Origin: Chlamydiales bacterium
Lineage (GTDB): Bacteria; Chlamydiota; Chlamydiia; Chlamydiales; JARBTQ01
Assembly: GCA_029240075.1 (NCBI GenBank)
Contig: JARBTQ010000007.1
Span: 28,750 to 92,749 of the forward strand
DNA length: 64,000 bases
Reading direction: 5' to 3'
Part shown: positions 1-62,510 of the stretch, in pieces
How positions within the stretch are numbered: the stretch's first letter is position 1
Layout of the letters: each line of letters begins with the position of its first letter
Made by a program: the position numbers and the translations under genes
The notes under the pieces: generated by a model
The model's input: only the letters and a program-made list of their open reading frames with translations
The model's database searches: none
What the model was told of the DNA's origin: nothing

Positions 1-1517
1 AGCAGAGTAAATTTCTTATAAAAAATCGTATTGGATATACAACTCATTTAGTTAATTTTATTTGCCAATATATTAGAGCCTTAAAATGTGAACAAACTTG
101 CTTCAATAAAGTCCATAATTTGCTCTCTATGGGTCTTGGATTGGGATTATTAGGCTATCATGAGAAAAGAGCTCAGGAGGCTTTAGAACAAGTCTTATTG
201 CAGCTTGTAAATTCGCAGCAAGAATCTTTAATTTTGTATGCTATAGGCTTATTTACAGCCCAATTAGAGGAAGATAATCTCATTGTGAAAGATCCTCTAT
301 GGTGTGAATTGGTTGAAAAAGTGATTTATCAACTTGCACAGCTCGATTCTAAATTAGGTAACGAGCAGATTTTTAAATTTTTTAGTACTATTTTGAAGAT
401 TGAAAAGGACGAGCTTCATGTAAAGCTTTTAACTGCGGTAGCAGCTACACTAAGTAGCTTGCGCGCTTTTATTGTAAGAGAAGAGGATCGTGGGGCTAGT
501 ATTCAGCTTTTCAATTTATTAGAAAGTCGTAAAGAATGGCAGGTTGAAAAAATTATAAGAGCTAATTTCTATAAAGACATGATTAACAAGTACCTGCTAG
601 TGGCAAAAAAACTTGCTCCTAAATTTAGCTTGCAAGCTGCTCTGTTCCTAACAGGGGGATTAGCTAGAAATGCTTTGGATAAGACTTATGAAGGGATAGA
701 ACAGCTTTTTGTTAACACAATAAAATCTCTTAATAAGCCAGACCTTGCTGAGTGTATTGAAAAAGGCATAGAACTATTCAATCATTTTTGCCATCTAGGT
801 CTGCATATAACAGCTAGTCGAGAATGCAAATTAAGTTTATTAGATGCCATTGGCAATTTAAGGCTTTGTGTTGATGGCTTAGAAGAGGTAACTACCAATC
901 CCCATTTTCTGATTCAAATTAAACAATTTTGGCTCTCAACAACAAAGCTTTATAAAGAGATCTTAGATAATCATCTGCCACTTAGTGGGACAGTTAAAAA
1001 AGAGATGTTAGAGTTTTTTGCTTTTGCTTTAAGTGTTTCTATAGAAAAAATGCCAGACCTTCTCAATAAACATATTACAACCATTAAAGGAAACCAAAAC
1101 ACCCTTAGCGAAGTAGCAATACTGGCTGATTGTGAAATGCTCGATACTATTTTTGCATGTTTCAATGAATGTCAAAATAATATCTTTTCAGAGTTTCATA
1201 GCATACGATTAAAGTGTTACAAAACACTGTTTCTGGCGCTCACTCAATCTTGGTTAGACCAGGCGGAAGAGATCATTTCATATAACCAAATAATGAGCTA
1301 TGACTCGGTAAATCGCACATCTTCTATAGAAATACGGTCATTATCCTATGATTCCCAAGCTACACTTAGCTTATTAAAGCGCCGTATAAAAATTGGGGTT
1401 ATTGAGCACTACCTAACTCTTTTTCTAAAACTTATAGATCAAGAGAACTGGAATGAACCATCCCGCCAGGTACAAAAAGAAGCTTTTGAGTTTTATAGGA
1501 GCTGTTTAAAGTCTTAA
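1..1517 (+). CDS. C-terminal part of a very large protein (5' end lies outside the window); paralog of the 2096-aa protein at 54189..60479
   Basis: The reading frame is open from nt 3 up to the track ORF start at 120 with no stop, so the gene enters from the left edge. Its C-terminus aligns by eye with the C-terminus of the 54189..60479 product: RLKCYKTL/RLKCYKSL, QENWNE/QENWND, VQKEAFEFY/VQKEALEFY, LESRKEW..RANFY/LDKRQEW..RADLY. Confidence 0.75.
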   Translation, partial: QSKFLIKNRIGYTTHLVNFICQYIRALKCEQTCFNKVHNLLSMGLGLGLLGYHEKRAQEALEQVLLQLVNSQQESLILYAIGLFTAQLEEDNLIVKDPLWCELVEKVIYQLAQLDSKLGNEQIFKFFSTILKIEKDELHVKLLTAVAATLSSLRAFIVREEDRGASIQLFNLLESRKEWQVEKIIRANFYKDMINKYLLVAKKLAPKFSLQAALFLTGGLARNALDKTYEGIEQLFVNTIKSLNKPDLAECIEKGIELFNHFCHLGLHITASRECKLSLLDAIGNLRLCVDGLEEVTTNPHFLIQIKQFWLSTTKLYKEILDNHLPLSGTVKKEMLEFFAFALSVSIEKMPDLLNKHITTIKGNQNTLSEVAILADCEMLDTIFACFNECQNNIFSEFHSIRLKCYKTLFLALTQSWLDQAEEIISYNQIMSYDSVNRTSSIEIRSLSYDSQATLSLLKRRIKIGVIEHYLTLFLKLIDQENWNEPSRQVQKEAFEFYRSCLKS

Positions 1518-1590
1518 TTTACAAAAAAATAGGCTGCTAAAGGCCGTTTAGTTGGATGGGGGCTGAATATATATAGATAGAAACAAAGAT

Positions 1591-1614
1591 ACAGGGGGAT
1601 AAATTTCCCCCTGT
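1591..1614. terminator. GC-rich hairpin between convergent genes (candidate bidirectional terminator)
   Basis: ACAGGGGGA (1591-1599) and TCCCCCTGT (1606-1614) form a perfect 9-bp stem with a 6-nt loop. It is flanked by A/T runs and sits between a + gene ending at 1517 and a - gene ending at 1638. Confidence 0.6.
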
Positions 1615-1637
1615 AAAAAGTAAAGTAACTCTATGGA

Positions 1638-2510
1638 TTATTTATTAGAAATTCCTAGCTCTAGTGCAATATGATCTTTAGATGATGTGTCTTTTTCCAA
1701 AGCCTGCTGTTTATTTCTTTCGGTAGAAGCTAAATTGTCATTTCCATATATTTTATCTTTTATGGATCTAAGATCTTCGCTAATTGTTCTCAATAATGTT
1801 AATTCAGATCCACGTTTACTAGAGGGGGAAGAATCCTGTAAAAGTTGCGCTATAGCATTTTCAAGAGATTCTTGAACGCTTTTTTCAATTGTTTCAGGCG
1901 CATTTTTTAAAATATCTTCGTACAAAAATTCAGCTAGCGAATGTTTTTTTGCTATAGCATTCTTAGTATATTTTATGAATTCCCATGCTAATCGTAAGCC
2001 AGCCCCAATAAAAATAGTATCAACAGCCCAAGGAAGGGTTTCATCGAATTGCGAATGGTCAGCTCGTTTTTCTAGATAGTTTTCGAATTCTTTATGAAGA
2101 GCTCGTGTTCCTACTATACTTCCGGTAATCACACCACCAGCTAAGATAAGACCAAATGCGCCAATAGCAATTCTATTAATTTTTTGTTTGGTCTCAGCTG
2201 TAATACACTCTTCTTGATTTGCTGTGTAAACAGAATGGGGATCTTGATGTGGATACTGGGTTTGAAATAAAATTTCATAATCTTTTTGAATTTTTTCCCG
2301 AATGTCATCTACAGTCTGCGTTACATCTATACGCTTAATAACAGTTTTATCCTTATTAGTAATTTCACAAAAGTAGCAAGTCTTATTATATTCTTCACTT
2401 TTAACTTTATGTAAAATGTAACCGTTAAAATTGTAATGGTCTGATTGAATTTGCATAACATCCCCCGTCATGGCAAATAACTCTTCATTTTCAGGATAGA
2501 CCCCTGGCAA
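1638..2510 (-). CDS. hypothetical membrane protein
   Basis: 290-aa ORF with one clear hydrophobic segment (INRIAIGAFGLILAGGVITGSIVGT). The track start at 2510 is TTG, and an ATG alternative exists at 2471. I recognise no family. Confidence 0.5.
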   Translation of the reverse strand: MPGVYPENEELFAMTGDVMQIQSDHYNFNGYILHKVKSEEYNKTCYFCEITNKDKTVIKRIDVTQTVDDIREKIQKDYEILFQTQYPHQDPHSVYTANQEECITAETKQKINRIAIGAFGLILAGGVITGSIVGTRALHKEFENYLEKRADHSQFDETLPWAVDTIFIGAGLRLAWEFIKYTKNAIAKKHSLAEFLYEDILKNAPETIEKSVQESLENAIAQLLQDSSPSSKRGSELTLLRTISEDLRSIKDKIYGNDNLASTERNKQQALEKDTSSKDHIALELGISNK

Positions 2511-2513
2511 AAG

Positions 2514-2533
2514 CCTTTTTGCAGTGATCTATT
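2514..2533 (-). repeat. copy of the TAGATCTCTGCGAAA intergenic repeat family (variant AATAGATCACTGCAAAAAGG)
   Basis: The reverse complement of 2514..2533 reads AATAGATCACTGCAAAAAGG, about 60 nt 3' of the degT-like stop. It matches the cores at 6141, 12111 (rc) and 32225. Confidence 0.5.
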
Positions 2534-2592
2534 AGAGCCTCCAATAAAGAGTTATACAAAAGATTTAATATATTATTGCCATAACCAAGATG

Positions 2593-3777
2593 CTATTTAT
2601 TGCGCAATGCTTTTAATAATGAGTGACAAATGTGGTCAATTTGTCTTTCCTTAAGTTCATGAAATAAGGGTAAAGAGAGACTCTGGTTATAGAACTTTTC
2701 CATACTAGGAAAACTTTCGTGATTGAAGGATTTATAGCGATCAATTGCAGGATGGTGGTACAGCGGGATATGAATGACATGGCTTCCTACTCCCATGCGG
2801 GCTAAGCTCTCCATAACATTTTTACGCTGCTTTTTATACTGACTGAATTCAATCTGTATATTGCATGAGCTATAAGCTGCATAAGAATCGTATTCTTCAG
2901 AAATGTAGGTGAGATGAGGGATATTTTGCAGCCTTTGGCGATAGTATTGCAGTAACTCTTTTCGCTTTTGCACGAAAATCTCCAGTTTCTGTAATTGCGA
3001 AAGAGCTAATGCCGTCTGTGTATTAGTAGGATTAAAGTTTCCTGTAATATCTAAAACTTCTGCATAATTGGGGTAAGGAAGAGCTCTAGCCTGAGGATGG
3101 CGTTCGATCCCATTATTTCTGTAAAGGCGTAAACGGTGGTAGTAATCAAGGTCATTAGTAGTTACGACACCTCCTTCATTTGCAGAGACTAGACTAGAAG
3201 TTTGTAAGCTAAATACTGTCATATCACTCCACTCACAGCACCCAACAACCTTGTCATCATATCCCCTATATTTAGCTCCTATAGCATGTGATGCATCCTC
3301 AATAATCACAGGATTAGGATGATGTAACCCATTAAAAATCTCTTTCATATTTGCACTAAGCCCAGCAAAATGACTTACAAAAATAATCGGGCTTCCTCGC
3401 GCAGCTCTAAAGGTAGATAATTTTTCAGATAGCAATTGATTATTCAAAAGTCCTGTCAGAAACTCTATATCAATTAAATCTATTTTACTGCGGCGCTGTA
3501 TAGCACCTATAACTGCATTAATTGAAGAGTTAGGGCTCAAGAAAATATGGTCGTATTCAGTTGCATTGACTGCGTAATAAACTCCTTGAAATGCAGCTGT
3601 ATCACTATTAAAAAGCACCGCATACTTAGCACGGCACTTTTGTGCAAATTCTTGCTCAAAATCTTCTACTAGTCTTCCACGCGAAGTTTTGAAATAAGTT
3701 AAGGCTCGTGTTGTTGCGCGAATATCGTCGCTATCGATAAATTGTAGCGTATTTGGGATAAAATTCTTTGTATTCAT
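2593..3777 (-). CDS. DegT/DnrJ/EryC1/StrS-family (sugar aminotransferase fold) protein lacking the canonical PLP lysine
   Basis: Family motifs are present: EDASHAIGAKY (compare EDAAHAxG) and FSLQTSSLVSANEGGVVTTND (compare FSFHAIKNITCAEGG of ArnB). The residue aligned with the Schiff-base Lys is Ser. The track ORF runs to a TTG at 3939, but ATG 3777 (MNTKNFIPN...) gives the normal family length. Confidence 0.7.
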   Translation of the reverse strand: MNTKNFIPNTLQFIDSDDIRATTRALTYFKTSRGRLVEDFEQEFAQKCRAKYAVLFNSDTAAFQGVYYAVNATEYDHIFLSPNSSINAVIGAIQRRSKIDLIDIEFLTGLLNNQLLSEKLSTFRAARGSPIIFVSHFAGLSANMKEIFNGLHHPNPVIIEDASHAIGAKYRGYDDKVVGCCEWSDMTVFSLQTSSLVSANEGGVVTTNDLDYYHRLRLYRNNGIERHPQARALPYPNYAEVLDITGNFNPTNTQTALALSQLQKLEIFVQKRKELLQYYRQRLQNIPHLTYISEEYDSYAAYSSCNIQIEFSQYKKQRKNVMESLARMGVGSHVIHIPLYHHPAIDRYKSFNHESFPSMEKFYNQSLSLPLFHELKERQIDHICHSLLKALRNK

Positions 3778-3973
3778 TCTTGTTCTTAAGGTATATCTTT
3801 TATAAAGCCACAACTTAATTTTCTTCACAATTGCGTATTTAGCGGGGAAGAATAGAAGATTTTTCAACCACGCAAATTTGATGGAGGAAAAAGGGAGCTC
3901 TATTGTTCGCAATAAGCTAGCAATGCTGAATAAAATCAACGGGATTACCTGTTAAAACTATTTTTATCAATTA

Positions 3974-6088
3974 ATGTTTAATCTGCAAGTAATGACCATG
4001 CATGAGCCTATTTTTCAAAATTATGTCCAAACAGCACAGAACCTCATTGTTCGGGGAACACGCGACAAACAAGCCCTACAAGAGCTTGCAGAGCTGATAG
4101 AGCAGAAGCTACAGCAAGCAATAGGGGACTATGAATATGAACAATTTTTTTGTGGTGAAAAAGCCTTTTTCACGGGAGACTACCAACAAGCCTTAAAATA
4201 CTATGCTTTAGCACCTAGCATTCCAAATATTTTATTTTTTTCGTATCGAGTTAAAGCCTTTTTATGTCAGCAATTAGAGCGAAAGCAAGAAGCTATTCAA
4301 TTTGGCAACAAAGCATTGGCTTTAGAGCCTACAGATTATATCACCCTACAATTATTACAGTTGCTCTACAAAGAGGGTGGAGATAAGCAGCAAGAGCAAT
4401 TAGTGACGCAGAAGATGGCAGATTTATCACAGGAACAAACGAAGAATGGGGTTGACAAAACTTCAGAAGAAATATCTGATAAATTATTTGATAGGCAAGA
4501 CAAGCAACTAGAGGAATCAACAGATGAAACTCCAGTAGGTTTGTCACAAAATGAATTATCTGATTTTCAAAATCTTTTTGAAATTTATGAAATAGAAAAA
4601 GAACGTTTTCAAAAAAACTTATTAGATTCGATGCAAGATAAGCAAGAAAAACTGGCTAAAAATACGCCGATATCAAATGAGACTGACTTCACGCCATCTA
4701 GCTGGATGCATCTTAATGAAGAGGAAATTGTAAAATCCCCTTTGTTCAACTTTATGCTAACTCAGCCTTTAGATGTTACCAACACAGAATATCCCCTTAA
4801 AAATTTAGAAAGCTTAGAGTTACCTATGCTGCCAAATTCTCCAAATATCTCTTTTGGGAGTTCATTTAAGGATCAAACAAAAACTTTAGAACCAATAATG
4901 CCATATCATAATTCCCAGGGAGGGGGGGCCAACCTAGAAAAAAGGCTAGAAAATTTCCAACACAGACAGTCAGAGCTAATGGATGATTATATGTCAAAGT
5001 CGGAACAACGGCATCAATTAGCTGATAATGGACTTTATATTTTGAATGGCTGGACTTTTGCGCAAGCTTGGGGACGTTCTATAGAAGAATCCAAGAAGCA
5101 CCCTATTCCTAGTGTTCTTTTACCTGAATATTATCGAAAGACGTCGGGAGGTTTCTATCTACGTTGGAATCGTAAGGGGATTGTCATTAATCCTGGTATG
5201 AACTTTTTACAAGCTTTTCATCAACAACAACTCTATATAACAGATATCGATTACGTTATTATCACACGTGATGCTATGGATTCTTATGCTGATGTTAAAG
5301 GAATTTATGACTTAAACTATCAGCACAATACTATCCGTGGAGGTTCTAGTAATCCTCATGTTATAAACTATTATTTGACACAAGAAGTCTTTCGTAACCT
5401 TTCCTCTGCTCTTAAACCTAACTTTAAGCAAGAGAGGCATATGCTACATTGCTTAGAGTTATATATTGATTCCCCAAATGAAGAAACAATCTCAATTGCA
5501 GAAGATATCCATTTATCTTACTTCCAAACTATCTTAGCTGACTCTAAGACCCAGAAGAGAACTAATACAGCATTAGGGATTCGATTAGATCTATTTACAG
5601 CTCCACCAAGAGAGATAAGCAAAAAAGCAGATCGCGCTATCGGGTTTGTGCTAGGGGCAGGATGGTCAGAAGCTTGTGTGGCCCCTTTAAAAGATGTAGA
5701 TGCGCTTATCGCTGGATTTGACAAGACCAATGCTGATGACTATAACAAGCTACAGTACCAAGCAGATTGTCTTGGTTATTATGGAACTTATAGCTTATTC
5801 ACAGAGTTGTACCCTAAACTTTTAATCTGCTGCGAATTTGATGGTAAGGATGGAGATATTCGATTGGAAGTCATTAAGAAAATTCGAAAAGACCTTTTAC
5901 TTAAAGGGCAGGGAAATGCAGAAGGAATTATTTTGCCTGGGGATACTGGATGTTACTTAAATTTACAACATCTAAAGATGCGTTGCTCTGTATGTAATGA
6001 ATGTGTTGCACCCGAGAGAATACATGTAGTTAAAGCACAAGAATCTTTTGGTTCGCTTCATTATCTTTGCCCCGATTGCCTTCTATAA
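3974..6088 (+). CDS. TPR-containing protein with a degenerate metallo-beta-lactamase-like core and a C-terminal CxxC..CxxC zinc ribbon
   Basis: The N-terminus has TPR-like repeats (ALKYYALAP, AIQFGNKALALEP). A central segment, GGFYLRWNRKGIVINPGMNF...DIDYVIITRDAMDSYAD, follows the MBL pattern, but HxHxDH is replaced by RDAMDS. The C-terminus reads CSVCNEC...CPDC. Confidence 0.5.
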   Translation: MFNLQVMTMHEPIFQNYVQTAQNLIVRGTRDKQALQELAELIEQKLQQAIGDYEYEQFFCGEKAFFTGDYQQALKYYALAPSIPNILFFSYRVKAFLCQQLERKQEAIQFGNKALALEPTDYITLQLLQLLYKEGGDKQQEQLVTQKMADLSQEQTKNGVDKTSEEISDKLFDRQDKQLEESTDETPVGLSQNELSDFQNLFEIYEIEKERFQKNLLDSMQDKQEKLAKNTPISNETDFTPSSWMHLNEEEIVKSPLFNFMLTQPLDVTNTEYPLKNLESLELPMLPNSPNISFGSSFKDQTKTLEPIMPYHNSQGGGANLEKRLENFQHRQSELMDDYMSKSEQRHQLADNGLYILNGWTFAQAWGRSIEESKKHPIPSVLLPEYYRKTSGGFYLRWNRKGIVINPGMNFLQAFHQQQLYITDIDYVIITRDAMDSYADVKGIYDLNYQHNTIRGGSSNPHVINYYLTQEVFRNLSSALKPNFKQERHMLHCLELYIDSPNEETISIAEDIHLSYFQTILADSKTQKRTNTALGIRLDLFTAPPREISKKADRAIGFVLGAGWSEACVAPLKDVDALIAGFDKTNADDYNKLQYQADCLGYYGTYSLFTELYPKLLICCEFDGKDGDIRLEVIKKIRKDLLLKGQGNAEGIILPGDTGCYLNLQHLKMRCSVCNECVAPERIHVVKAQESFGSLHYLCPDCLL

Positions 6089-6138
6089 AATTTAATGACT
6101 TGAATAAAGAAGCCCTTTCAAATTTTTTTAGCTGACTT

Positions 6139-6186
6139 AATAGATCTCTCTGCGAAATAGGTTTTGAAAAAGACCTATTTCCCTAA
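6139..6186 (+). repeat. reference copy of the intergenic repeat family (TAGATCTCTCTGCGAAATAGGTTTTGAAAAAGACCTATTTCCC)
   Basis: It lies 50 nt after the stop at 6088. It contains an internal 9-bp hairpin, GAAATAGGT (6154-6162) / ACCTATTTC (6173-6181). Confidence 0.6.
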
Positions 6187-6447
6187 TTTCGAGTATTGGA
6201 AAGCAAGAGAAGTACTATGCTAATAATTAGCTAAAATCGTAACTTTTACAAAAATGATTCCTCTTTTCCATCTGGCTTAATGCAGCATAACCTGCTGCTA
6301 TTGGTGAAGCCTATTAACGGACCTCCAAACTTTCAAACTGCTATCATAAAAAATAATAATAATAAATTTATTCTCAATTTTTTTAATAATTTATATTTCA
6401 TTAATTATATTAATTTATAAATTTACTTTAATGTAACATTGGATTTT

Positions 6448-8352
6448 ATGGTAATTATGGATAACCCTAGTCTTTACAAAAGTATAGAAACCCATTTAGC
6501 AGCTCACGGAATAAACGATTTAGCAGATTCAAAATTGACCCTATTAAAAGGTAAAAATAATCAAAATAATATTATAGTTACAGAAGCAGATAGCACGGGG
6601 AAAAGATATGCATGGATTAGAGTTGATGTAAAAGGGGACAACAATCAATGGATAGAGACTTCGACTACGTCAAAAGCTGACCTTAAGGCTCTCTTAAATT
6701 GTCTATTAATTGCTCGTAAACAATTTGATTCGTTTGCAAAAAAAGAGCATGGAATAGCTCAGCTAGGTTCTGTGCTGCAAGAAGCTAAGCAAATGACGTT
6801 TAATATTAAATCTATTGGTACAACTCAAGGACAACAAACAACGGTAGCGAACCTTGCTGAACATAAAAATCATAAGCTTCTTGTTCAGAACTGGGAAGAG
6901 ATAAAAGAAGCAAAGAGAGGTAAGGACGCAGAGAAAAGTTACATCGAGTATGTAGCGGCCAAAAGCGATAAGAAGTATCAGGAAATAGTTAAAAATAGTG
7001 GGCACTTAACTGCCCCTAAATCAGCATCTAAGCAAGAAGAAAGTTTTAGTAACACGGTCGCTAATCCGTCTTTAACGGAAGAAAAGCTAAATGCAGAAGA
7101 AAGAGAAGAAGTTTCAGTAATCGATAAGAGGCAACTAAAGACTACGGATAGGAATAATCTAAGAAAAAACCAATCTAAATTTAGACAAAAGTTACCTTTA
7201 ACCAACCCTATATTTTATGAAAAAATAAAAAGAATGGTACAAACTGAGCATGTTCCTAAAAAAGATCTAAATATAGATTCTGAAGTAAGGAACAGGATAG
7301 AAAATTATTTGAATTCTGATGAGATAGAAACTTATACCCCATATTCAAAAGGTGAAGAGGCAAAAAAATTCGATGAGTATTTAATTGAATATTTGAAAAG
7401 CAAATTGGTAGCTGATTTCCCTCTATTAAATAAAGAATTAGAGAAACCAAATTCTGATATTTTAAAATTTATTAATAACAAAAGCAGAAAGTATATCTAT
7501 AGGCAAGAAATAATTGAAAAAGCTATCCAAGACGCAATAAAAGTGATCCCTTCTGTAAAAGATTTTTATTGGGCTCTCCCTTTGCAAGTAAAGAGTAGAG
7601 ATAAAAATATTTCTGAAAATCAAGCAGATATCATACTGAATAAGCTCGAATTAAAAATAAAAGAATTTATTTATGAAAAATTAGAAAATAAAGGCATAGA
7701 TTTAACTAGTCCCTCAGTAAAGAAGTTATTAGATGTTGAAGTTGATAGATATTTAAATAGTTTGCGCTATTTTAGAAGTAAACCACGTGACCCCGCTAAT
7801 GTTAAAGAGGTACATAAATTTTTTGATGAACATGAAGCTAAAATGTTTGAACGCCTTAAAGTTTCTTCTGCTAGAGGAAGTATCGAGCGTAAGGCTGCTG
7901 AGCTACACACTTTCATTTATAATCAGTATTTGACGGGTGATAGCAGCGATCATTTTCCTATAGAGAAAAAAATGATAGCAAAAACGGTTCAATTCATAAT
8001 TCAAAATTTTGAAAAACTTCCAGATAAGAAAAAAGAACAAATTATAGAAAAAATTAAAGGCATAGTCAGTACGAAAGAACCTTCAGAGCTTAATAAAAAA
8101 AGACCGCATTACAAAAACATGGTAGAGAAATTACAGAAGCTTAGAATAGAAATAAATTTAGAGCTTTATTTAGAAACAATAAACACAGAGCTGACATTAC
8201 AAGAGAAAAAGACGATTTTCAAAGAACTTAAAGCAAATAATACGGAAGCATTCTTAAAAATAATTTTTAAAGATAAGCCCAAAAAATATGGTGATTATGA
8301 TTCAGGATTCTTAGAAATACTAAAGCGTCTTATTCCGTTAAAAATAAAATGA
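6448..8352 (+). CDS. Lys/Glu-rich hypothetical protein (effector-like)
   Basis: Long ORF preceded by a nearly pure A/T upstream region. The track start is TTG 6439, with ATGs at 6448 and 6457. I recognise no family; the composition is low-complexity and K/E-rich. Confidence 0.55.
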   Translation: MVIMDNPSLYKSIETHLAAHGINDLADSKLTLLKGKNNQNNIIVTEADSTGKRYAWIRVDVKGDNNQWIETSTTSKADLKALLNCLLIARKQFDSFAKKEHGIAQLGSVLQEAKQMTFNIKSIGTTQGQQTTVANLAEHKNHKLLVQNWEEIKEAKRGKDAEKSYIEYVAAKSDKKYQEIVKNSGHLTAPKSASKQEESFSNTVANPSLTEEKLNAEEREEVSVIDKRQLKTTDRNNLRKNQSKFRQKLPLTNPIFYEKIKRMVQTEHVPKKDLNIDSEVRNRIENYLNSDEIETYTPYSKGEEAKKFDEYLIEYLKSKLVADFPLLNKELEKPNSDILKFINNKSRKYIYRQEIIEKAIQDAIKVIPSVKDFYWALPLQVKSRDKNISENQADIILNKLELKIKEFIYEKLENKGIDLTSPSVKKLLDVEVDRYLNSLRYFRSKPRDPANVKEVHKFFDEHEAKMFERLKVSSARGSIERKAAELHTFIYNQYLTGDSSDHFPIEKKMIAKTVQFIIQNFEKLPDKKKEQIIEKIKGIVSTKEPSELNKKRPHYKNMVEKLQKLRIEINLELYLETINTELTLQEKKTIFKELKANNTEAFLKIIFKDKPKKYGDYDSGFLEILKRLIPLKIK

Positions 8353-8465
8353 CATACAAAATAGATTGCCAGGGAGATCAAACTTTATCTATTTGATACT
8401 TAAAATATAGTGGATTATGGAAAAATATTGAGCTTGGGTTTAAATCTTTACTATTGGTAACTCGG

Positions 8466-8501
8466 TAGATCGTTACGAGATGAGTTTCGAAAAAGATATA
8501 G
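8466..8501 (+). repeat. copy of the intergenic repeat family (TAGATCGTTACGAGATGAGTTTCGAAAAAGATATAG)
   Basis: It aligns by eye with 6141..6180 (TAGATC..CGA.AT.GGTTT.GAAAAAGA..TAT). It lies about 110 nt 3' of the stop at 8352. Confidence 0.45.
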
Positions 8502-8634
8502 TCTAACTTCAAAATTAGATTATCTAGCTAGTTGAATCTGCCACTTATGCAAGCTACAAAAGAGACCATTTAAGCTTCAGTGTCTCTAAAAAAACTTCTT
8601 TAGATAAGAATGTTAAAAGATATTTTACTCCCTA

Positions 8635-9090
8635 TTATTTTGTTTGTCCAAGTGGGCTTTCTAAGATCATTGTAACGGGTCCATCATTGATTAGGGTAAC
8701 TTCCATTTTAGCAGCAAATTGTCCCGTCTTGACTATGGGAATTTTCTGAGTAAGCTGATGAACAAACTCATTGTATAGAGGTTGGGCAACTGCTCCTGAT
8801 GCAGATTTTGTAAAAGAGGGGCGTCTTCCTTGTGCACAATCACCATAAAGAGTGAATTGGCTGACTACCAAAATTTCCCCTTTAACTTCTTGGATATCTC
8901 TATTCATTTTGTCCTGCTCATCGGCAAAGATTCGCATATGAATGAGTTTATGGATCATCCAGGGAATCGTTTCTATAGCATCAGTAGGCTGAATGCCTAA
9001 TAGTACAAGAAGCCCTTTATCGATAGCACTGTAGGTTTGCCCCTCTATAGAAACACTAGCAGATTTAACTCTTTGAATGACTAAACGCAT
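8635..9090 (-). CDS. dtd: D-aminoacyl-tRNA deacylase
   Basis: MRLVIQRV..., SQFTLYGD and GRRPSF are hallmark Dtd motifs. ATG at 9090 gives the usual length of about 150 aa. Confidence 0.9.
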   Translation of the reverse strand: MRLVIQRVKSASVSIEGQTYSAIDKGLLVLLGIQPTDAIETIPWMIHKLIHMRIFADEQDKMNRDIQEVKGEILVVSQFTLYGDCAQGRRPSFTKSASGAVAQPLYNEFVHQLTQKIPIVKTGQFAAKMEVTLINDGPVTMILESPLGQTK

Positions 9091-9248
9091 GATGAAATAG
9101 TATAGCTTATACAAAATGGTAAAGGTTTGACGGTATGCCCTTTAGACGTAGATAACACAATAAGAAATAAATAGATTGATGTCACTATAAATGTTAAAGA
9201 CCTAAAGTAAGGAGAGATCTAAATGACCCCTCCCGCTGCGAAATTTGT

Positions 9249-32169: not shown

Positions 32170-32224
32170 ACTAGCCTTTTTTTACTTAAAAATGGGTAAC
32201 TTTTCTTTTATGACTCTAGTCAAG

Positions 32225-32257
32225 TAGATCTCTGCAAATAGTATTGCAAGAGATCTA
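32225..32257. repeat. palindromic copy of the intergenic repeat family (TAGATCTCTGCAAatagtaTTGCAAGAGATCTA)
   Basis: A near-perfect inverted repeat around a 7-nt centre. It has the same termini as the 12111..12145 copy and lies 3' of the MarC gene stop. Confidence 0.65.
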
Positions 32258-32287
32258 TTGATACATTTATTGCATGTAAATTTAGGC

Positions 32288-36465: not shown

Positions 36466-36672
36466 GTAAAATTAGATTTAATTTCAAAGAAACTTTACAT
36501 TTTCGCTTCTACTTATAGGTTAAGTACTTCTTTCTAATAAAAAGCTTTTGAAATTTGATTATTACACTCTCATCAAAAAAAGAGCTTGCCTTTCCACGCA
36601 AATTAAATTAAATAGACAAATCCAAGAAGAACTGTGCCTAGCTAGTTAAGCTAGGCTTATAAAAAGTAATCC

Positions 36673-37782
36673 ATGGCTGACGATTTTCAAGATAAAACAG
36701 AAGATGCAAGTTCCAAAAAATTAAGCGATTCCCGTCGTAAAGGAATGGTTGCGCAGTCTCGCGATTTTACATCGGGAACACTTCTGTTAACGAGTGTACT
36801 ACTTTTGTATTTCTTCTCCAGTTTTATGTTTGATTATCTGCAACAAATAACAGTAGGGGTATTAACACACCTTGATGAACCTTTCAGTGAAGTAGAGGCG
36901 ATCACTTACTGGCTAAGACAAGGACTTTTAACCAATTTAGCAATGATGGCTCCTTTCCTAGGCCCACTTTTGATAATCGGGGTGGGTATTAATGTTTACC
37001 AGGTGGGCTTTGTTGTTTCTACAGAAGGAATTACGCCAAAATGGAACAAACTTAATATATTTGATGTAAATAATTTGAAAAAGTATTTCAGCCTACAAGC
37101 ATGGATGCGACTTGTATTAGGCTTAATTAAAATGACGATTATAGCTGTTATCAGTTACGTAATGATCACAAATTCTTACGTCCAATTTATGGAGCTTATG
37201 GAAGCTCCTGTAAGACAAATGTTTGCTTATATATGCAACGAGTTCTTTTGGTTGGCTGTTGTTCTTTCTATACTGCTGCTGGTTCTTGGAATTGTCGATT
37301 TTACCTTCCAAAAGTGGAAGTTCATGCAAGATATGAAGATGACCAAACAAGAGGTTAAAGAGGAACATAGGCAATCTGAAGGGGATCCAAAAGTTAAGTC
37401 AAAGATGCGTTCGATGATGCAATCGATGTTATCTAATCGTATGAAAGCTAATATTCCAAAAGCAGATGTAATTATTGCCAACCCAGTACACTTTGCAATA
37501 GCTATCAAATATGACGCTGAGAAGATGGCTGCGCCGATTTGTGTTGCTAAAGGGGTTGAAAATATGGCTATCATGATCAAAGAGCTTGCCAAGGAGCATA
37601 AAGTGCCAATTGTAGAAAATCCCCCTTTAGCCCGTGCTTTATATAAAGTTGTAGACGTAGGAGTCGCAATTCCTGCTAATTTTTATCATGCTGTTGCTGA
37701 AGTGCTAGCTTACGTTTATCGACTCAATGATAAGTTAGGCAAGCAGCACGCTAGACCAGAAAATCCTTCACATAAGATATAA
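36673..37782 (+). CDS. flhB: FlhB/SctU-family type III export switch protein (flagellar-type by context)
   Basis: N-terminal KTEDASSKKLSDSRRKGMVAQSRDF, four TM segments, an autocleavage-site region ANPVHFAIAIKY (NPVH instead of NPTH), and a C-terminal VAKGVENMAIMIKELAKEHKVPIVENPPLARALY. Confidence 0.85.
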   Translation: MADDFQDKTEDASSKKLSDSRRKGMVAQSRDFTSGTLLLTSVLLLYFFSSFMFDYLQQITVGVLTHLDEPFSEVEAITYWLRQGLLTNLAMMAPFLGPLLIIGVGINVYQVGFVVSTEGITPKWNKLNIFDVNNLKKYFSLQAWMRLVLGLIKMTIIAVISYVMITNSYVQFMELMEAPVRQMFAYICNEFFWLAVVLSILLLVLGIVDFTFQKWKFMQDMKMTKQEVKEEHRQSEGDPKVKSKMRSMMQSMLSNRMKANIPKADVIIANPVHFAIAIKYDAEKMAAPICVAKGVENMAIMIKELAKEHKVPIVENPPLARALYKVVDVGVAIPANFYHAVAEVLAYVYRLNDKLGKQHARPENPSHKI

Positions 37783-37798
37783 GAAGTAAGGAGAGTTC

Positions 37799-39886: not shown

Positions 39887-39924
39887 AATAGTAGTTCAGG
39901 GCCTGATACACAAAGGAAAAGAAG

Positions 39925-41466: not shown

Positions 41467-41498
41467 AGTAGACTAAACAGTAGTAAGGAGCTCAATGA

Positions 41499-41822
41499 AT
41501 GGATAAACGTTATCTATTTAGTTTTGTTTTTTTAGTTACTTTAGCGACTACAGTGGCTGTAGCAGCTATAAGTATTTTTTTTCAACAACAGTTGATGTAC
41601 ACGGTAATTTACTCTTTAACAGCAATGTGGGTGATGGGGATCGTTAGTCAAATTATGGTTAAGCAGCTCTATATAAGTATTGTAAAGCCCTTAGAATTAT
41701 CTAAGTTAGAGGCTGCAAAAAACCAAGCAAATTCTTTAGATCTAAATATCAACGAAATAGAAGCTATTGATTCGGTTATAGAAGAAGCAGAAAAAAGTAC
41801 ATCAGCTAATTTAAAGAGATGA
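41499..41822 (+). CDS. small two-TM protein of unknown function in the flhG slot
   Basis: 107 aa. AAGGAG lies about 10 nt upstream of the ATG. It has two hydrophobic segments followed by an acidic, coiled tail. Confidence 0.55.
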   Translation: MDKRYLFSFVFLVTLATTVAVAAISIFFQQQLMYTVIYSLTAMWVMGIVSQIMVKQLYISIVKPLELSKLEAAKNQANSLDLNINEIEAIDSVIEEAEKSTSANLKR

Positions 41823-41995
41823 TTACTGAGGCTTAGTGGACAAACAAAATTTATTCTTAAAATGAAATAAAGAATTGCACTCTATTGACAGATTCCTATA
41901 ATGCACAAATATAGGCAGCCCTAAAAGAGGGGGTTAGCACACTTCACTGAAATTTCAGACGGTGTACTAGCAGTACTAATCACAATAACCGATGA

Positions 41996-42799: not shown

Positions 42800-42847
42800 A
42801 GACTTAAGCATTAGACCTCTTCCGAATCTTTTGTATTGGAGATTCGA

Positions 42848-42878
42848 TAGATCTCTGAGAAATAAGTTTCTAGAAAGG
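42848..42878 (+). repeat. copy of the intergenic repeat family (TAGATCTCTGAGAAATAAGTTTCTAGAAAGG)
   Basis: It lies about 50 nt after the fliA stop and aligns with 6141..6172. Confidence 0.55.
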
Positions 42879-43083
42879 TTAACTACTAGAATCTCTTTAC
42901 AATCTAGTTTCTAATTGGCTAGGTAAATTTCTAAAAATGTCGTTCTATAAAAAAATCATATACATATTTACCCCTATTGTCTTCTGCTGAGCTCAGCTAA
43001 AGTGGAGGGAAGGGGGCATGTATGTACGCATTTTTAGATTCTTCTCTTGAATTTTCTTAAAAAGTATTTATTATTTACTCACC

Positions 43084-43990
43084 TTACGCAATGTCGTAGG
43101 GTTTGTGAATTTTTACTAATCTCTGATAAGCCATAAGGTTTGCTTTAATGGCGAGCTTATATTTAAGAGCAAAGTGATTCAAACTTGTTTTAATTTTTAA
43201 AAATTTGAGCTGGCAATAAGCTATCAGAGATGCAAAAATATGGTTTTTCTGAGAACGGACTACCTTAGTAGGAGATTTTGCAAGGCTAGCATTCTACTTA
43301 ATTGAGATGAAAAGTTTCTTTATATCATAGTGAATATACTTTAGATTGTCTTTAGAGATAAACTACTTGTCAGCAAGTACGTAACTAAATTTAATTGGGT
43401 TCTTTACAGCTTTGTTTAAAAGATCTCGAAATAATTCATTCCTAGTTTTACTAGATTTTCCTTTCTCTTTTTTAATTCCTATCTCGCCATAGTGTAAATC
43501 TTTAGTAATTACTTCATAACTGATAGGTAAAGATGCTTTTCCCTGAACAATCAAACCAGAAACAATATTGATCCCCTTATCCCTTTAACACAGCGTCCTT
43601 TTGCGTGGCTGTAATACCAATTATTGACTTCATTTACATCTGTATATGGTTTTTCCTCTATACAATCATCTATGACTAAAAATCCCTCAAAACATGTCTT
43701 AATTTGGCGTATTTTTGGTTTTAGAACTTCCTATAGCAGCTTTGCATTTCCTTCATAGTTATTCAAAAAAAGAATCACTTTATCATAACTGACCTCGTAA
43801 TCGAGCATAGAAGCTAATCCTGTAGCTGAGCCTGCTGATTTTGGCAAATAAGATAGTCGTTGTAAATGTCTAAAAGTTGTAATGCCATTATAATACCCTT
43901 TAGTAGTAGACAAAGGTATTTTACTGACCTTAAATATACCAGGCAATCTCAGTTTGCGTAAGGCGGATATATGAGTTTTTGACTTATTGA
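43084..43990 (-). mobile_element. decayed IS transposase gene (DDE-type, IS701/IS4-like by motif impression), no intact ORF
   Basis: The minus-strand reading gives ...GLASMLDYEVSYDKVILFL..NAKLL, then TAG (43731-43733), then EVLKPKIRQ..FLVIDDCIEEKPY. A frameshift follows at the imperfect 8-nt tandem ATCCCCTT/ATCCCTTT (43571-43586). It continues GINIVSGLIVQGK..VLADK, then TAG (43363-43365, where W is expected), then F... through to ...NHIFASLIAYCQLKFLK... and the stop at 43084. Confidence 0.6.
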
Positions 43991-44022
43991 GCTTTTTTCA
44001 ATCTTTAACGCTGAAAAGTTGG

Positions 44023-44052
44023 TAGATCGCTATAAAATAGGTTTCAAGGGAA
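44023..44052 (+). repeat. copy of the intergenic repeat family (TAGATCGCTATAAAATAGGTTTCAAGGGAAA)
   Basis: It shares TAGATC.CT...AAATAGGTTT with 6141..6165. It lies between the IS remnant and the 3' end of the F-box gene. Confidence 0.5.
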
Positions 44053-44261
44053 ATTAATTGATGATGTTATTTGATTCAGAAGATTGTTCCATTTAACTTC
44101 ATGACTGTATTTAACAGCCACGAAGTAGTATAGAACGCTTGGCAATATAGAAAGTAAACTGTAGTCAAATCCAACCACGCTAGTGCATACCAATTGCTTT
44201 CCTTGTTCGATATTAGATTACATACTTATTGCTAAAGTGATTAAGCATAATTTTTATAAGG

Positions 44262-48915: not shown

Positions 48916-48950
48916 GTATATGAGTTCTTTAGAGTAAAGAACTCATATAC
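48916..48950 (+). terminator. perfect 16-bp AT-rich hairpin right after the TPR gene
   Basis: GTATATGAGTTCTTTA-gag-TAAAGAACTCATATAC, beginning 7 nt after the stop. Confidence 0.6.
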
Positions 48951-49020
48951 CAGATGGGTTTGTTATCAGATCTTCTTCTATCAAGCAGCTTCTTCAAAAT
49001 CTTTACTTTTGGAAACTCAA

Positions 49021-49063
49021 TAGATCCCTGTAAAATAATTTGTGAAAGAAACCTATTGTCCCT
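49021..49063 (+). repeat. copy of the intergenic repeat family (TAGATCCCTGTAAAATAATTTGTGAAAGAAACCTATTGTCCC)
   Basis: It is collinear with 6141..6183 along its whole length, including the ACCTATT..CCC end. Confidence 0.6.
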
Positions 49064-49150
49064 ATTTGGTCGTTAATTTTATAGGCCTGTAATTTTTCAT
49101 CTAATACCTTTATTTGAAGTTTAGGGTGTTTTAGAAATATTGCACCTAGA

Positions 49151-49188
49151 TAGATCTCTAAAAACTACTTAAGGTAAATAGGTTTCCT
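49151..49188 (+). repeat. copy of the intergenic repeat family with an internal insertion (TAGATCTCTaaaaactacttaaggtAAATAGGTTTCC)
   Basis: It has both core blocks, TAGATCTCT and AAATAGGTTT. It lies 3' of the minus-strand F-box gene stop at 49211. Confidence 0.5.
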
Positions 49189-62032: not shown

Positions 62033-62214
62033 TTCTTAGATCAGACCTTTTTTAAAATTTAACAAATATTGTAGCTCTTTTAGCACCTTCTATAAATACA
62101 GTTGTAATAGGCAGTAGAGGGGTAAAATATTTTAAAAGTTGTTTATCTTTTATTGCGATAAGTGTGCCAAGTTTCGAACCAAGTTTACCTTATCTATCTC
62201 GAAGGTAAAATTGA

Positions 62215-62288
62215 GTAATATCTTTTGCAGAACCCTTTTTCGGTTGATTTTATAAATTTTCTATAAAAGATATTTAGCAAAAGATCTA
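62215..62288 (-). repeat. expanded copy of the intergenic repeat family
   Basis: The minus strand reads TAGATCTTTTGC[34-nt AT-rich insert]CGAAAAAGGGTTCTGCAAAAGATATTAC. Compare TAGATCTCTGCGAAAAAGGTCCCAAAAGAGATCTATTC (the reverse complement of 12111..12148). Confidence 0.45.
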
Positions 62289-62510
62289 CTTTGAAAGATA
62301 ATAAATTGCTGAAATGGCATTAAGATGCTATATTACTAGTACTAAAGTTAAGGAGAATGAATGAGTTGCTTTTTTCATACTTCTAGGTTATGACCTAAAG
62401 TGTAGGGGAAAGACTTTTTATAAGAGGCGCAGCTTGAAATTGCCTCTTATCATTTCGAATACATATTAGAAGGTATTGTTTGGAGTTTTATTAGGGGGAA
62501 AGCCGGAGAT

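What the first reader, a model, noticed from the sequence alone, without database searches (positions are those of the whole stretch)
6139..6186. Dispersed, partly palindromic intergenic repeat family with core TAGATCTCTGCGAAA (at least 12 copies in 64 kb)
By-eye alignment shows related 25-75 bp elements at 2514-2533(-), 6139-6186, 8466-8501, 9918-9960, 10099-10122, 12111-12145, 32225-32257, 42848-42878, 44023-44052, 49021-49063, 49151-49188 and 62215-62288(-). Weaker candidates lie near 9205-9245, 24721-24757 and 36491-36530.

The copies share TAGATC(T/G/C/A)CT..GC(G/A)AAA. This is followed either by an inverted copy of the core (AGAGATCTA; copies at 12111 and 32225 are near-perfect palindromes) or by AAATAGGTTT..GAAAAAGACCTATTTCCC, which folds into its own 9-bp hairpin.

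All copies are intergenic, and most lie within about 250 nt (several within about 60 nt) 3' of a stop codon. This resembles a REP/MITE-like element or a recurrent protein-binding or terminator motif. I cannot assign it to any element family I know.
Basis: seen in the sequence. Interest (0 to 1): 0.65.

Follow-up and report, generated by a model that had tools for sequence, protein, structure and literature searches.

The report
Dispersed palindromic repeat in a chlamydial genome
The flagged motif is the centre of a real non-coding repeat of about 90-105 nt that forms an imperfect palindrome, is scattered behind genes in an uncultured soil chlamydia-like bacterium, and looks like an ordinary selfish MITE/REP-type element of a family not described before.

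Summary

**What is there.** The core TAGATCTCTGCGAAA is the left arm of a hairpin. That hairpin sits inside a 90-105 nt imperfect palindrome with consensus TATTGAGCCTCTTTCAAATCTTTACTATTGGTGACTCGA-TAGATCTCTGCGAAA-loop-TTTCGAAAGAGATCTATT.

**Copies in the window.**
- Eight copies are statistically robust (leave-one-out nhmmer E 8e-17 to 5e-4).
- One is borderline: 62210-62307.
- Two are marginal fragments: 49142-49166 and 9913-9956.
- 10099 and the three "weaker candidates" have no support.

**Copies elsewhere.** At least 25 other contigs of the same soil metagenome carry copies at the same ~36x depth, so the family is genome-wide. No trace turned up in 185,579 reference genomes, JGI metagenomes, plasmids, phages or Rfam.

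**Placement.** All copies are intergenic. Six of eight start 9-74 nt after the stop codon of a gene on the same strand. None lies between divergent genes.

**Interpretation.** Copies are 45-67% identical to each other, only half still fold well, and pairing tracks sequence conservation rather than compensatory change. The best reading is a decaying, lineage-specific MITE/REP-like selfish repeat that is co-transcribed with upstream genes. A dedicated terminator role is not supported. This is a new member of a known kind, of modest interest.

The parts
12080..12186 (-). Full-length element, the copy closest to the genome-wide consensus. It runs from TATTGAGCC to CTCAAC and contains the near-perfect palindrome 12111-12145. 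It fills 107 of the 131 nt between the stop of the response-regulator gene (12199) and the ABC-F start (12067).
   Evidence: Leave-one-out nhmmer E 8e-17; CM 89.7 bits; RNA fold -18.9 kcal/mol, z -2.3. Twenty other contigs at about 36x match 12108-12187 at 80% identity or more, with a sharp boundary at 12183/12184.
48981..49071 (+). Full-length but degenerate copy in the convergent spacer between the TPR gene (stop 48909) and the F-box/WD40 gene (stop 49211). It lies 71 nt after the stop, behind a separate strong hairpin at 48916-48950.
   Evidence: Leave-one-out E 1e-12; CM 81.4 bits; fold z +0.84; no close relatives in X1; upstream hairpin -20.3 kcal/mol, z -5.6.
42807..42897 (+). Full-length copy that starts 9 nt after the stop of the sigma-28-type sigma factor gene (42799). 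It forms the left flank of an IS701-like transposase pseudogene.
   Evidence: Leave-one-out E 1.4e-11; CM 77.5 bits; two related contigs in X1.
8423..8516 (+). Full-length copy forming a 94-nt imperfect palindrome (AATATTGAGCTT...AACTTCAAAATT). It lies in a convergent spacer, 71 nt after the stop at 8352.
   Evidence: Leave-one-out E 2.3e-8; CM 75.9 bits; self-complementarity alignment; two related contigs.
43983..44071 (+). Degenerate copy between the IS701-like pseudogene and the stop of the F-box gene (44262). It has the same orientation as the copy at 42807.
   Evidence: Leave-one-out E 7e-8; CM 72.1 bits; fold z +0.84.
6104..6193 (+). Copy that starts 16 nt after the stop at 6088. This is the finding's own locus. 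Its right arm AGACCTATTT pairs with AAATAGGTTT rather than with TAGATCT.
   Evidence: Found at E 7e-9 by a profile that did not contain it; leave-one-out E 5e-8; hairpin -14.3 kcal/mol, z -2.4. Three other contigs share 6146-6179, and one of them has TAGGTCT as its left arm.
2481..2573 (-). Copy with a duplicated 5' segment and a long hairpin. It starts 19 nt after the DegT-family gene stop (2593). It overlaps the mechanically called TTG start (2510) of the next ORF, whose in-frame ATG at 2471 lies just past the element.
   Evidence: Leave-one-out E 4.6e-4; CM 72.3 bits; fold -25.3 kcal/mol, z -3.0; sequence read.
32192..32272 (+). Short-form copy: the near-perfect palindrome 32225-32257 with a weak 5' arm. 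It lies between two minus-strand genes (MarC stop 32288, SufE start 32169).
   Evidence: Leave-one-out E 2.7e-4; CM 59 bits; palindrome scan; fold z -2.2.
62210..62307 (.). Borderline relic: a hairpin with arms TAGATCTTTTGC / GCAAAAGATAT and a 45-nt loop, in a divergent spacer.
   Evidence: CM 24.9 bits, E about 0.05; nhmmer E 0.37 in intergenic-only search; fold z -3.4.
49142..49166 (+). Marginal fragment (TAGATCTCT plus a later AAATAGGTTT) with no inverted partner.
   Evidence: nhmmer E 0.2 on the whole window and 0.018 on intergenic DNA only; not found by the CM.
9913..9956 (.). Marginal short hairpin TAGACCTCTTGCA...TGCAAGAGATTC, which resembles the 32225 palindrome.
   Evidence: nhmmer E 0.56 on the whole window and 0.048 on intergenic DNA only; fold -14 kcal/mol, z -2.7; not found by the CM.

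Best explanation
This is a lineage-specific family of small, non-coding, imperfectly palindromic dispersed repeats. It belongs to the MITE/REP kind, in the genome of an uncultured Chlamydiales-like bacterium from soil.

**Shown**
- The unit is about 90-105 nt.
- It has a sharp 5' end (TATTGAGCC).
- A roughly 45-nt arm can form a weak stem (TTGAGCY with RACTCGA).
- It has a central hairpin TAGATCTCTGC-loop-GCAGAGATCTA followed by ATT(T).
- In the better-preserved copies the rest of the 3' side is a degenerate inverted copy of the 5' arm.
- Copies are homologous to each other, and there are at least about 35 loci in the genome.
- They are confined to intergenic DNA, mostly just behind stop codons of same-strand genes or between convergent genes.
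- Window copies are 45-67% identical to each other.

**Inferred**
- The family spread by a copy-and-insert process, driven in trans by a transposase encoded elsewhere. That enzyme could be a DDE type or an HUH/Y1 type acting on single-strand hairpins.
- Insertions survived only where they do not break genes or promoters.
- The copies are now mostly decaying relics.
- Because of where they sit they are probably co-transcribed into mRNA 3' ends. Their hairpins may then incidentally affect 3'-end stability, processing or read-through.
For: **Homology beyond chance**
- Leave-one-out E-values run from 8e-17 to 5e-4 for eight copies.
- PWM scores are 27-56 against a shuffle maximum of 9.

**Genome-wide family at single-genome depth**
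- 20 other contigs at about 36x match 12108-12187.
- Ten of them end exactly at 12183/12184.
- Five more contigs match other copies.

**Palindromic build**
- Self-alignments show it.
- Reverse-strand CM hits fall on the same loci.

**Placement**
- All eight copies are intergenic. The chance of that is about 1e-8 if placement were proportional to length.
- Five are in tandem spacers, three in convergent spacers and none in divergent spacers, although divergent spacers make up 35% of intergenic DNA.
- Six of eight start 9-74 nt after the stop of a same-strand gene.

**Decay rather than maintained structure**
- Pairwise identity is 45-67%, about equal in the arm and the hairpin.
- Four of eight copies fold no better than shuffles.
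- The hairpin stem is 79% paired, but shuffles give 76%, so pairing follows sequence conservation.

**Lineage-specific**
- Two degenerate patterns found no true match in GTDB genomes or JGI metagenomes.
- Syntenic loci of relatives lack it.
- There are no plasmid, phage or Rfam matches.

**Fit with known elements**
- The placement pattern matches what is reported for REPs (PMC3733652) and for several MITEs such as QMITE2 and 3'-end ERIC copies (PMC10969869).
Against: - No target-site duplication could be defined.
- Terminal inverted repeats are only recognisable in two or three copies.
- No cognate transposase was found. None is in the 71 kb available, and the only IS remnant (DDE_5) is single-copy with unrelated ends.
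- No presence/absence polymorphism could be tested, because the related strain X2 has too little coverage.
- No identical copies were seen; the best is 6 mismatches in 79 nt. Current mobility is therefore unproven.
- The tight clustering 9-20 nt after stop codons in four copies could reflect function rather than tolerated insertion.
- One stem pair shows a 4:4 C-G / U-A split.
- One outside copy has TAGGTCT matching AGACCTA.
- These last two observations hint that pairing may matter.
Confidence: 0.68

Rival explanations
1. The elements are a family of functional 3'-end modules. Their hairpin plus the short T-rich tail would act as a terminator (bidirectional in convergent spacers) or as an mRNA-stabilising 3' hairpin. 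They would have been spread and kept because they work, like SPRITE-type terminator-like repeats.
For: - Six of eight copies start 9-74 nt after a same-strand stop codon.
- All three convergent spacers of 190 nt or more carry one, and no divergent spacer does.
- Copies close to the consensus end in a hairpin followed by ATTT(T). This is seen in the loose-end consensus sequences and in 12145, 32225, 6141 and 2531, with z -2.2 to -3.0.
- Canonical terminators are not enriched in this genome: 13 found against 11.6 expected.
Against: - Stems are AT-rich, tails are short, and the terminator scan flags no element.
- Four of eight copies fold no better than shuffles.
- Whole-element consensus folds have z -0.2 and -1.2.
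- The copies at 12080-12186 and 2481-2573 fill short spacers between same-strand genes that look like operons.
- The 48981 copy sits behind an independent strong hairpin.
- There is no compensatory evolution in the main stem.
Confidence: 0.15
2. The elements are recurrent binding sites for a DNA- or RNA-binding protein, such as a nucleoid-associated protein, a regulator or a recombinase. That protein would recognise TAGATCT half-sites and the AATCTTTAC...TTGG...ACTC arm. The copies would then be a set of functional sites, not selfish DNA.
For: - There are blocks of invariant sequence: AATCTTT, TGG and TAGATC.
- Three TAGRTYT-like half-sites recur in fixed order: TAGATCT, TAGGTTT and the inverted AGACCTA.
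- The hairpin stem sequence recurs with variable loops.
Against: - Homology extends over 80-100 nt with a sharp end, which is far more than a binding site needs.
- Conservation is about even along the element.
- Copies avoid promoter-bearing divergent spacers, so a transcription-factor operator is unlikely.
- No protein partner is identifiable.
Confidence: 0.08
3. Each copy is a small-RNA gene of a multi-copy family, with its own promoter in or before the 5' arm and the hairpin as its terminator.
For: - The 5' boundary is sharp.
- TTGAGC and TACTAT hexamers occur in the 5' arm.
- The 3' end is a hairpin plus a T-rich tail.
Against: - The hexamers are only 14-15 nt apart.
- The promoter scan lists no site inside any of the four elements in the region it covered, window 1-20000.
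- Upstream flanks are not conserved: loose-end agreement is 0.56.
- Indels and decay differ between copies.
- Rfam gives nothing.
- No RNA data exist.
Confidence: 0.03

Closest known systems
REP / BIME elements (repetitive extragenic palindromes; GTAG- and CGTC-tagged families, PMC3733652; RAYT-associated, PMC2817692)
   Same: - Both are short palindromic intergenic repeats in tens to hundreds of copies.
- Both lie mostly downstream of genes, between unidirectional and convergent ORFs.
- Both are probably transcribed as RNA hairpins.
- Head-to-head arrangements occur in both.
- The hairpin module here (33-35 nt, 9-bp stem, variable loop) is REP-sized.
   Different: - The repeated unit here is 90-105 nt, not 20-40 nt.
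- The TAG lies inside the stem.
- The preceding base varies: GTAG occurs in only 3 of the 8 robust copies, and A predominates genome-wide.
- There is therefore no unpaired, conserved GTAG or CGTC tag.
- Stems are AT-rich.
- No RAYT gene was seen in the DNA available.
Bacterial MITEs that are long imperfect palindromes: ERIC/IRU (127 bp), Correia/NEMIS (100-155 bp), Coxiella QMITE2, Rickettsia RPE (PMC10969869, PMC3184786)
   Same: - Size is about 100 nt, with no coding capacity and an imperfect palindrome over the whole length.
- Location is intergenic and probably transcribed, often in 3' untranslated regions (QMITE2, 3'-end ERIC copies).
- The family is lineage-restricted.
- The host is an intracellular bacterium, as with QMITE and RPE.
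   Different: - No sequence similarity is known.
- No clean terminal inverted repeats or TA/target duplication could be shown.
- No promoter or IHF site was recognised.
- Unlike RPE, no in-frame intragenic copies were seen.
[quoted passage not shown]
   Same: Both are repeats found downstream of genes that carry a hairpin followed by a T-rich stretch.
   Different: - Here the hairpin is AT-rich, and it is degenerate in half of the copies.
- The tail is only ATT(T).
- Some copies lie inside apparent operons or behind separate terminators.

Membership tests
REP (GTAG/CGTC-tagged) | Unit is a 20-40 nt palindromic stem-loop | tested here: not met
   The hairpin module is 33-35 nt (12111-12145, 32225-32257). 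The homologous unit, however, is 75-105 nt with a 45-nt 5' arm.
REP (GTAG/CGTC-tagged) | Conserved GTAG or CGTC tetranucleotide at one end, not base-paired and present in over 90% of members (PMC3733652) | tested here: not met
   The base before TAG is G in 3 of the 8 robust copies, A in 4 and C in 1. In X1 contigs it is mostly A (12146 G>T on the plus strand in 11 contigs). TAG pairs with CTA inside the stem.
REP (GTAG/CGTC-tagged) | Associated RAYT (Y1/HUH) transposase gene flanked by the repeats | not testable with these tools
   Pfam found no transposase family among the window ORFs scanned. Only about 71 kb of the genome could be reached, because the other contigs cannot be fetched.
REP (GTAG/CGTC-tagged) | Located downstream of ORFs, between unidirectional or convergent genes | tested here: met
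   Five tandem spacers, three convergent, none divergent. Six of eight start 9-74 nt after a same-strand stop.
MITE | Small (50-500 bp), non-coding, multi-copy | tested here: met
   Elements are 81-107 nt. Indels between copies break every reading frame. At least 25 extra contigs carry copies, in addition to 9 local copies.
MITE | Terminal inverted repeats | tested here: inconclusive
   TATTGAGC... pairs with ...CTTCAAAAT at 8423-8516 and with ...CTCAAC at 12080-12186. Other copies are too degenerate on the 3' side.
MITE | Target-site duplication flanking each copy | tested here: inconclusive
   Flanks are AT-rich with no consistent direct repeat. The 3' ends are not sharp enough to decide.
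MITE | Parent IS with matching ends, or presence/absence polymorphism showing mobility | not testable with these tools
   The only IS remnant (DDE_5, 42990-43950) is single-copy and its ends are unrelated. The related strain X2 is covered at only 3-5x with contigs under 0.7 kb.
Intrinsic (Rho-independent) terminator | G+C-rich stem directly followed by a T run | tested here: not met
   No element is among the 13 terminator-like sites in window 1-20000. Stems are AT-rich and the tail is ATT(T). Four of eight copies fold no better than shuffles.
Integron attC array | Co-oriented imperfect palindromes after each cassette in an array next to an integrase | tested here: not met
   Copies lie on both strands among housekeeping genes. 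No integrase family turned up among the window ORFs scanned.
Any Rfam RNA family | Match to a curated covariance model | tested here: not met
   No gathering-score hits in the window. At the elements there are only chance-level hits, E of 0.4 or higher.

The most novel reading that the evidence does not exclude
The element could be a maintained two-hairpin cis-element at mRNA 3' ends, or on single-stranded DNA. A specific chlamydial protein would recognise it, and stem pairing would be preserved by compensatory change.

Two observations hint at this:
- One stem pair is split 4:4 between C-G and U-A.
- The main stem TAGATCT/AGATCTA appears as TAGGTCT/AGACCTA in another copy.

On this reading the element would be co-opted for transcript stability, processing or developmental-stage control in an environmental chlamydia, not mere selfish DNA.
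Probability: 0.1. Interest if true: 0.6.

Novelty: new member of a known kind. Interest (0 to 1): 0.3.

Why it matters
Classical Chlamydia genomes are reported to almost completely lack repetitive elements (PMC2878342). My literature searches found no small palindromic dispersed repeat described for Chlamydiae.

A MITE/REP-like family with at least about 35 copies in an uncultured soil chlamydia would matter in three ways:
- It adds to the picture of more fluid genomes in environmental chlamydiae.
- It gives a marker for strain typing and for finding assembly breaks in such metagenome-assembled genomes.
- It flags about 11% of this window's intergenic DNA as repeat-derived, which matters for promoter, terminator and sRNA prediction.

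It opens no new mechanism unless the 3'-end placement proves to be functional.

Tried and rejected
**Alternative readings of the element**
- *Promoter.* TTGAGC and TACTAT are only 14-15 nt apart. The CCGATA/TAAAG order is wrong for sigma-28 and occurs in one copy only. There is no GG-N10-GC for sigma-54. The promoter scan (window 1-20000 only) lists no site inside the four elements there. Three strong copies also have no downstream same-strand gene.
- *Small ORF.* Indels between copies break all frames.
- *Ends of the neighbouring IS.* The IS701-like (DDE_5) pseudogene is single-copy. It is flanked by two direct, not inverted, copies, and its weak inverted ends are unrelated.
- *Integron attC, DNA-uptake sequence, Dam/GATC cluster.* There is no array or integrase, and GATC occurs at the expected frequency (ratio 1.03).

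**Searches for relatives**
- Two degenerate patterns were scanned against GTDB genomes and one against JGI metagenomes. The results were 0, 4 and 1 hits, all chance.
- Syntenic loci of three Chlamydiales relatives lack the element.
- blastn against plasmids and phages found nothing.

**Attempts to reach more of the genome**
- I tried to fetch other contigs of the same genome through paralogous proteins. The 2096-aa protein and the F-box/WD40 protein returned only themselves, and one query failed twice.

**Data that were missing or too thin**
- RNA evidence: only two soil DNA runs hold the sequence.
- Insertion polymorphism in the related strain X2: coverage is too low.

**Corrected impressions**
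- I first thought the organism was a Dependentiae bacterium, from the ABC-F hits. The FHIPEP (FlhA/SctV-type) protein corrected this to Chlamydiales: 70%, 67% and 60% identity to Chlamydiales and Parachlamydiaceae genomes.
- I also first thought the 5' arm was better conserved than the hairpin. Measurement gave 0.65 against 0.64.

Full report

At 6139-6186 the sequence reads AATAGATCTCTCTGCGAAATAGGTTTTGAAAAAGACCTATTTCCCTAA, as described.

The short core alone is weak evidence:
- TAGATCNCTNNGCRAAA at up to 2 mismatches gives 5 hits against 1.5 expected, and 2 of 100 shuffles reach 5.
- The 11-mer TAGATCTCTGC at up to 2 mismatches gives 29 against about 23.

The context tells a different story:
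- The repeat finder ranks as its top direct-repeat family a 51-nt unit, AAATCTTTACTATTGGTAACTCGGTAGATCGTTACGAGATGAGTTTCGAAA, at 8442, 42824, 43999 and 48997. It also finds 52-71 nt inverted matches to 12108-12179.
- A PWM from seven copies scores them 27-56 bits against a shuffle maximum of 9.
- An nhmmer profile built from five copies finds 6109-6187 at E 7e-9, and also 2566-2493, 32223-32266 and a copy just outside the window (L005:12370-12408).
- Leave-one-out profiles recover all eight window copies with E from 8e-17 to 4.6e-4.
- A covariance model with two helices scores the eight at 59-90 bits. The next hit is 62210-62307 at 24.9 bits (E about 0.05), followed by reverse-strand hits on the elements themselves.
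- In a search limited to intergenic DNA, 49142-49166 (E 0.018) and 9913-9956 (E 0.048) are marginal.
- 10099, 9205, 24721 and 36491 never score.

The verdict is eight robust copies, one borderline, two marginal and four unsupported.

**2. Anatomy**

Alignments and self-complementarity alignments give this unit: TATTGAGCCTCTTTCAAATCTTTACTATTGGTGACTCGA | TAGATCTCTGCGAAA - variable loop - TTTCGAAAGAGATCTATT.

- In the better-preserved copies (12080-12186, 8423-8516, 2481-2573) the 3' side continues as a degenerate inverted copy of the 5' arm. It ends in ...CTCAA(C) or ...CTTCAAAAT.
- The whole element is therefore a 90-105 nt imperfect palindrome.
- 12111-12145 and 32225-32257 are its near-perfect central hairpins.
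- In 6104-6193 the right arm AGACCTATTT pairs with AAATAGGTTT instead of with TAGATCT.

**3. It is genome-wide**

The window is part of JGI metagenome 3300042923, contig Ga0456365_0000444 (93.9 kb). The same organism is present in a soil run at about 36x.

I laid that run's contigs on 12080-12210:
- Twenty other contigs match 12108-12187 at 80% identity or more. Those whose lengths and depths were listed are 8.7-43 kb at 35-38x.
- Summed depth is about 780, which is about 21 copies.
- Ten alignments end exactly at 12183/12184, the T/A of TATTGAG, and the sequence beyond is unrelated and AT-rich.
- Five further contigs match other window copies.

With the nine local copies this gives at least about 35 loci. 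The true number is probably higher, because window copies that are under 80% identical to each other are not cross-detected. The best outside copy differs at 6 of 79 positions, and no identical copies were seen.

**4. Where the copies sit**

All eight are intergenic, although 90% of the window is coding. The chance of that is about 1e-8 if placement were proportional to length.
- Five lie in tandem spacers and three in convergent spacers.
- None lies in divergent spacers, although these hold 35% of intergenic DNA. The chance of none of eight is about 0.03.
- Six start 9, 14, 16, 19, 71 and 74 nt after the stop codon of a same-strand gene.
- Two (12080-12186, 2481-2573) nearly fill short spacers between same-strand genes.
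- Elements make up about 11% of the window's intergenic DNA.

**5. Structure and selection**

- As RNA, four copies fold significantly better than shuffles (z -2.2 to -3.0). Four do not (z -0.7 to +0.8).
- Consensus-like full elements give z -0.2 and -1.2.
- The main stem is 79% paired against 31-51% for slid controls. Column shuffles give 76%, and only two pairs show double changes. Pairing is therefore explained by shared ancestry.
- A second weak stem, TTGAGCY with RACTCGA, is 63% paired against 30-42% slid. One of its pairs is split C-G 4 to U-A 4. With nine related sequences this is not proof.
- One outside copy carries TAGGTCT opposite AGACCTA, which is a possible compensatory variant.
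- Mean pairwise identity is about the same in the arm (0.65) and the hairpin (0.64) for the five best copies. That fits roughly neutral decay.

**6. Is it a terminator?**

- The consensus scan finds terminator-like sites at chance level (13 against 11.6 expected), and none is an element.
- Ordinary hairpin terminators do exist in this genome: 1615-1590 on the minus strand and 48916-48950 (-20.3 kcal/mol, z -5.6).
- The second of these lies between the TPR gene's stop codon and the element at 48981, so that element is not needed to end the transcript.
- A dedicated terminator role is therefore not supported. An incidental effect of the hairpins on mRNA 3' ends remains plausible.
- No RNA data exist for this organism.

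**7. Relatives and known families**

- Two degenerate patterns, each matching several window copies, were scanned against 185,579 GTDB species genomes, and the first of them also against JGI metagenomes. Only chance hits resulted, and none extends beyond the pattern.
- Syntenic loci in three Chlamydiales relatives (FHIPEP protein 60-70% identical) lack the element.
- Rfam, plasmid and phage searches are negative.
- Literature searches found no small dispersed palindromic repeat described for Chlamydiae. Classical Chlamydia are said to almost lack repeats (PMC2878342).
- Against the REP definition (PMC3733652) the placement fits, but the unit is too long and there is no conserved, unpaired GTAG or CGTC tag.
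- Against the MITE definition (PMC10969869) the size, lack of coding capacity, copy number and intergenic location fit. Clean terminal repeats, a target duplication and a parent IS could not be shown.

**8. Conclusion**

The finding is a real, previously undescribed family of MITE/REP-like imperfect palindromes, specific to one lineage of environmental chlamydiae. It most likely spread by transposition in trans, is tolerated only behind genes, and is now largely decaying. Confidence in this reading is about 0.68.

The mobilising enzyme and any RNA-level function are unknown. It is a new member of a known kind, of modest interest.

Noticed in passing
window 42990-43950 (-): A frameshifted, stop-interrupted IS701-like transposase pseudogene. 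The read-through translation hits Pfam DDE_5 at E 7e-9. It is single-copy in the metagenome and sits between two same-orientation copies of the repeat (42807-42897 and 43983-44071).
   Followed up: partly
window 36673-42799 (+): A cluster of export-apparatus genes: FlhB/SctU-type (Bac_export_2), FlhA/SctV-type (FHIPEP; 70% identical to a Chlamydiales MAG), an FlhF-like SRP54-type GTPase, a 107-aa ORF and a sigma-28-type sigma factor. This cluster is what identified the organism as chlamydia-like.
   Followed up: partly
window 10166-12067 (-): The ABC-F protein's best named database relatives are Dependentiae/Babeliales (about 50% identity), while the FHIPEP protein points to Chlamydiales. This could be database composition or horizontal transfer between amoeba-associated bacteria.
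   Followed up: no
window 44262-46007 (-), 49211-50668 (-), 24926-25761 (-), 3974-6088 (+), 46825-48909 (+): Eukaryote-like proteins typical of amoeba symbionts. They include two F-box proteins (one with a WD40-like propeller), ankyrin-repeat ORFs with a 93-nt DNA periodicity (repeat finder D2) and large TPR proteins. The F-box/WD40 protein has no detectable homolog in the 5.8-billion-protein search.
   Followed up: partly
window 54189-60479 (+) and L006:1506-7544 (ends at window 1517): Two giant paralogous ORFs (2096 and 2012 aa). Their C-terminal parts are 23% identical. They have no Pfam domain, and the 2096-aa protein has no database homolog other than itself.
   Followed up: partly
window 48916-48950 (+) and 1590-1615 (-): Strong conventional terminator-type hairpins directly after stop codons. 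The first has -20.3 kcal/mol and z -5.6. The second has a 10-bp stem with 6 G-C pairs followed by a T-rich tail. The genome therefore has ordinary terminators that are independent of the repeat.
   Followed up: partly
window 15342-16008: Assembler depth jumps to about 556x in X1 and 490x in X2, against a 36x/4x baseline, inside an ORF of unknown function (15371-17203). An A-rich low-complexity stretch lies near 15825-15860. This is probably a short match to an abundant unrelated contig.
   Followed up: no
whole window: CCGG is half as frequent as a Markov model expects (14 against 28.8), while other 4-nt palindromes are near expectation. This may be avoidance of a restriction-modification site.
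   Followed up: no
window 52306-52539 (+): A tandem 117-nt duplication (70% identity) lies inside the 944-aa ORF 50939-53773, which has no Pfam domain.
   Followed up: no
window 8355-8394 (+): Right after the stop at 8352 there is a short hairpin, AAATAGAT...ATCTATTT. Its arms resemble the element's stem (nhmmer E 0.086 in intergenic-only search), but it folds weakly (z -0.5). It may be a tiny relic or chance.
   Followed up: partly
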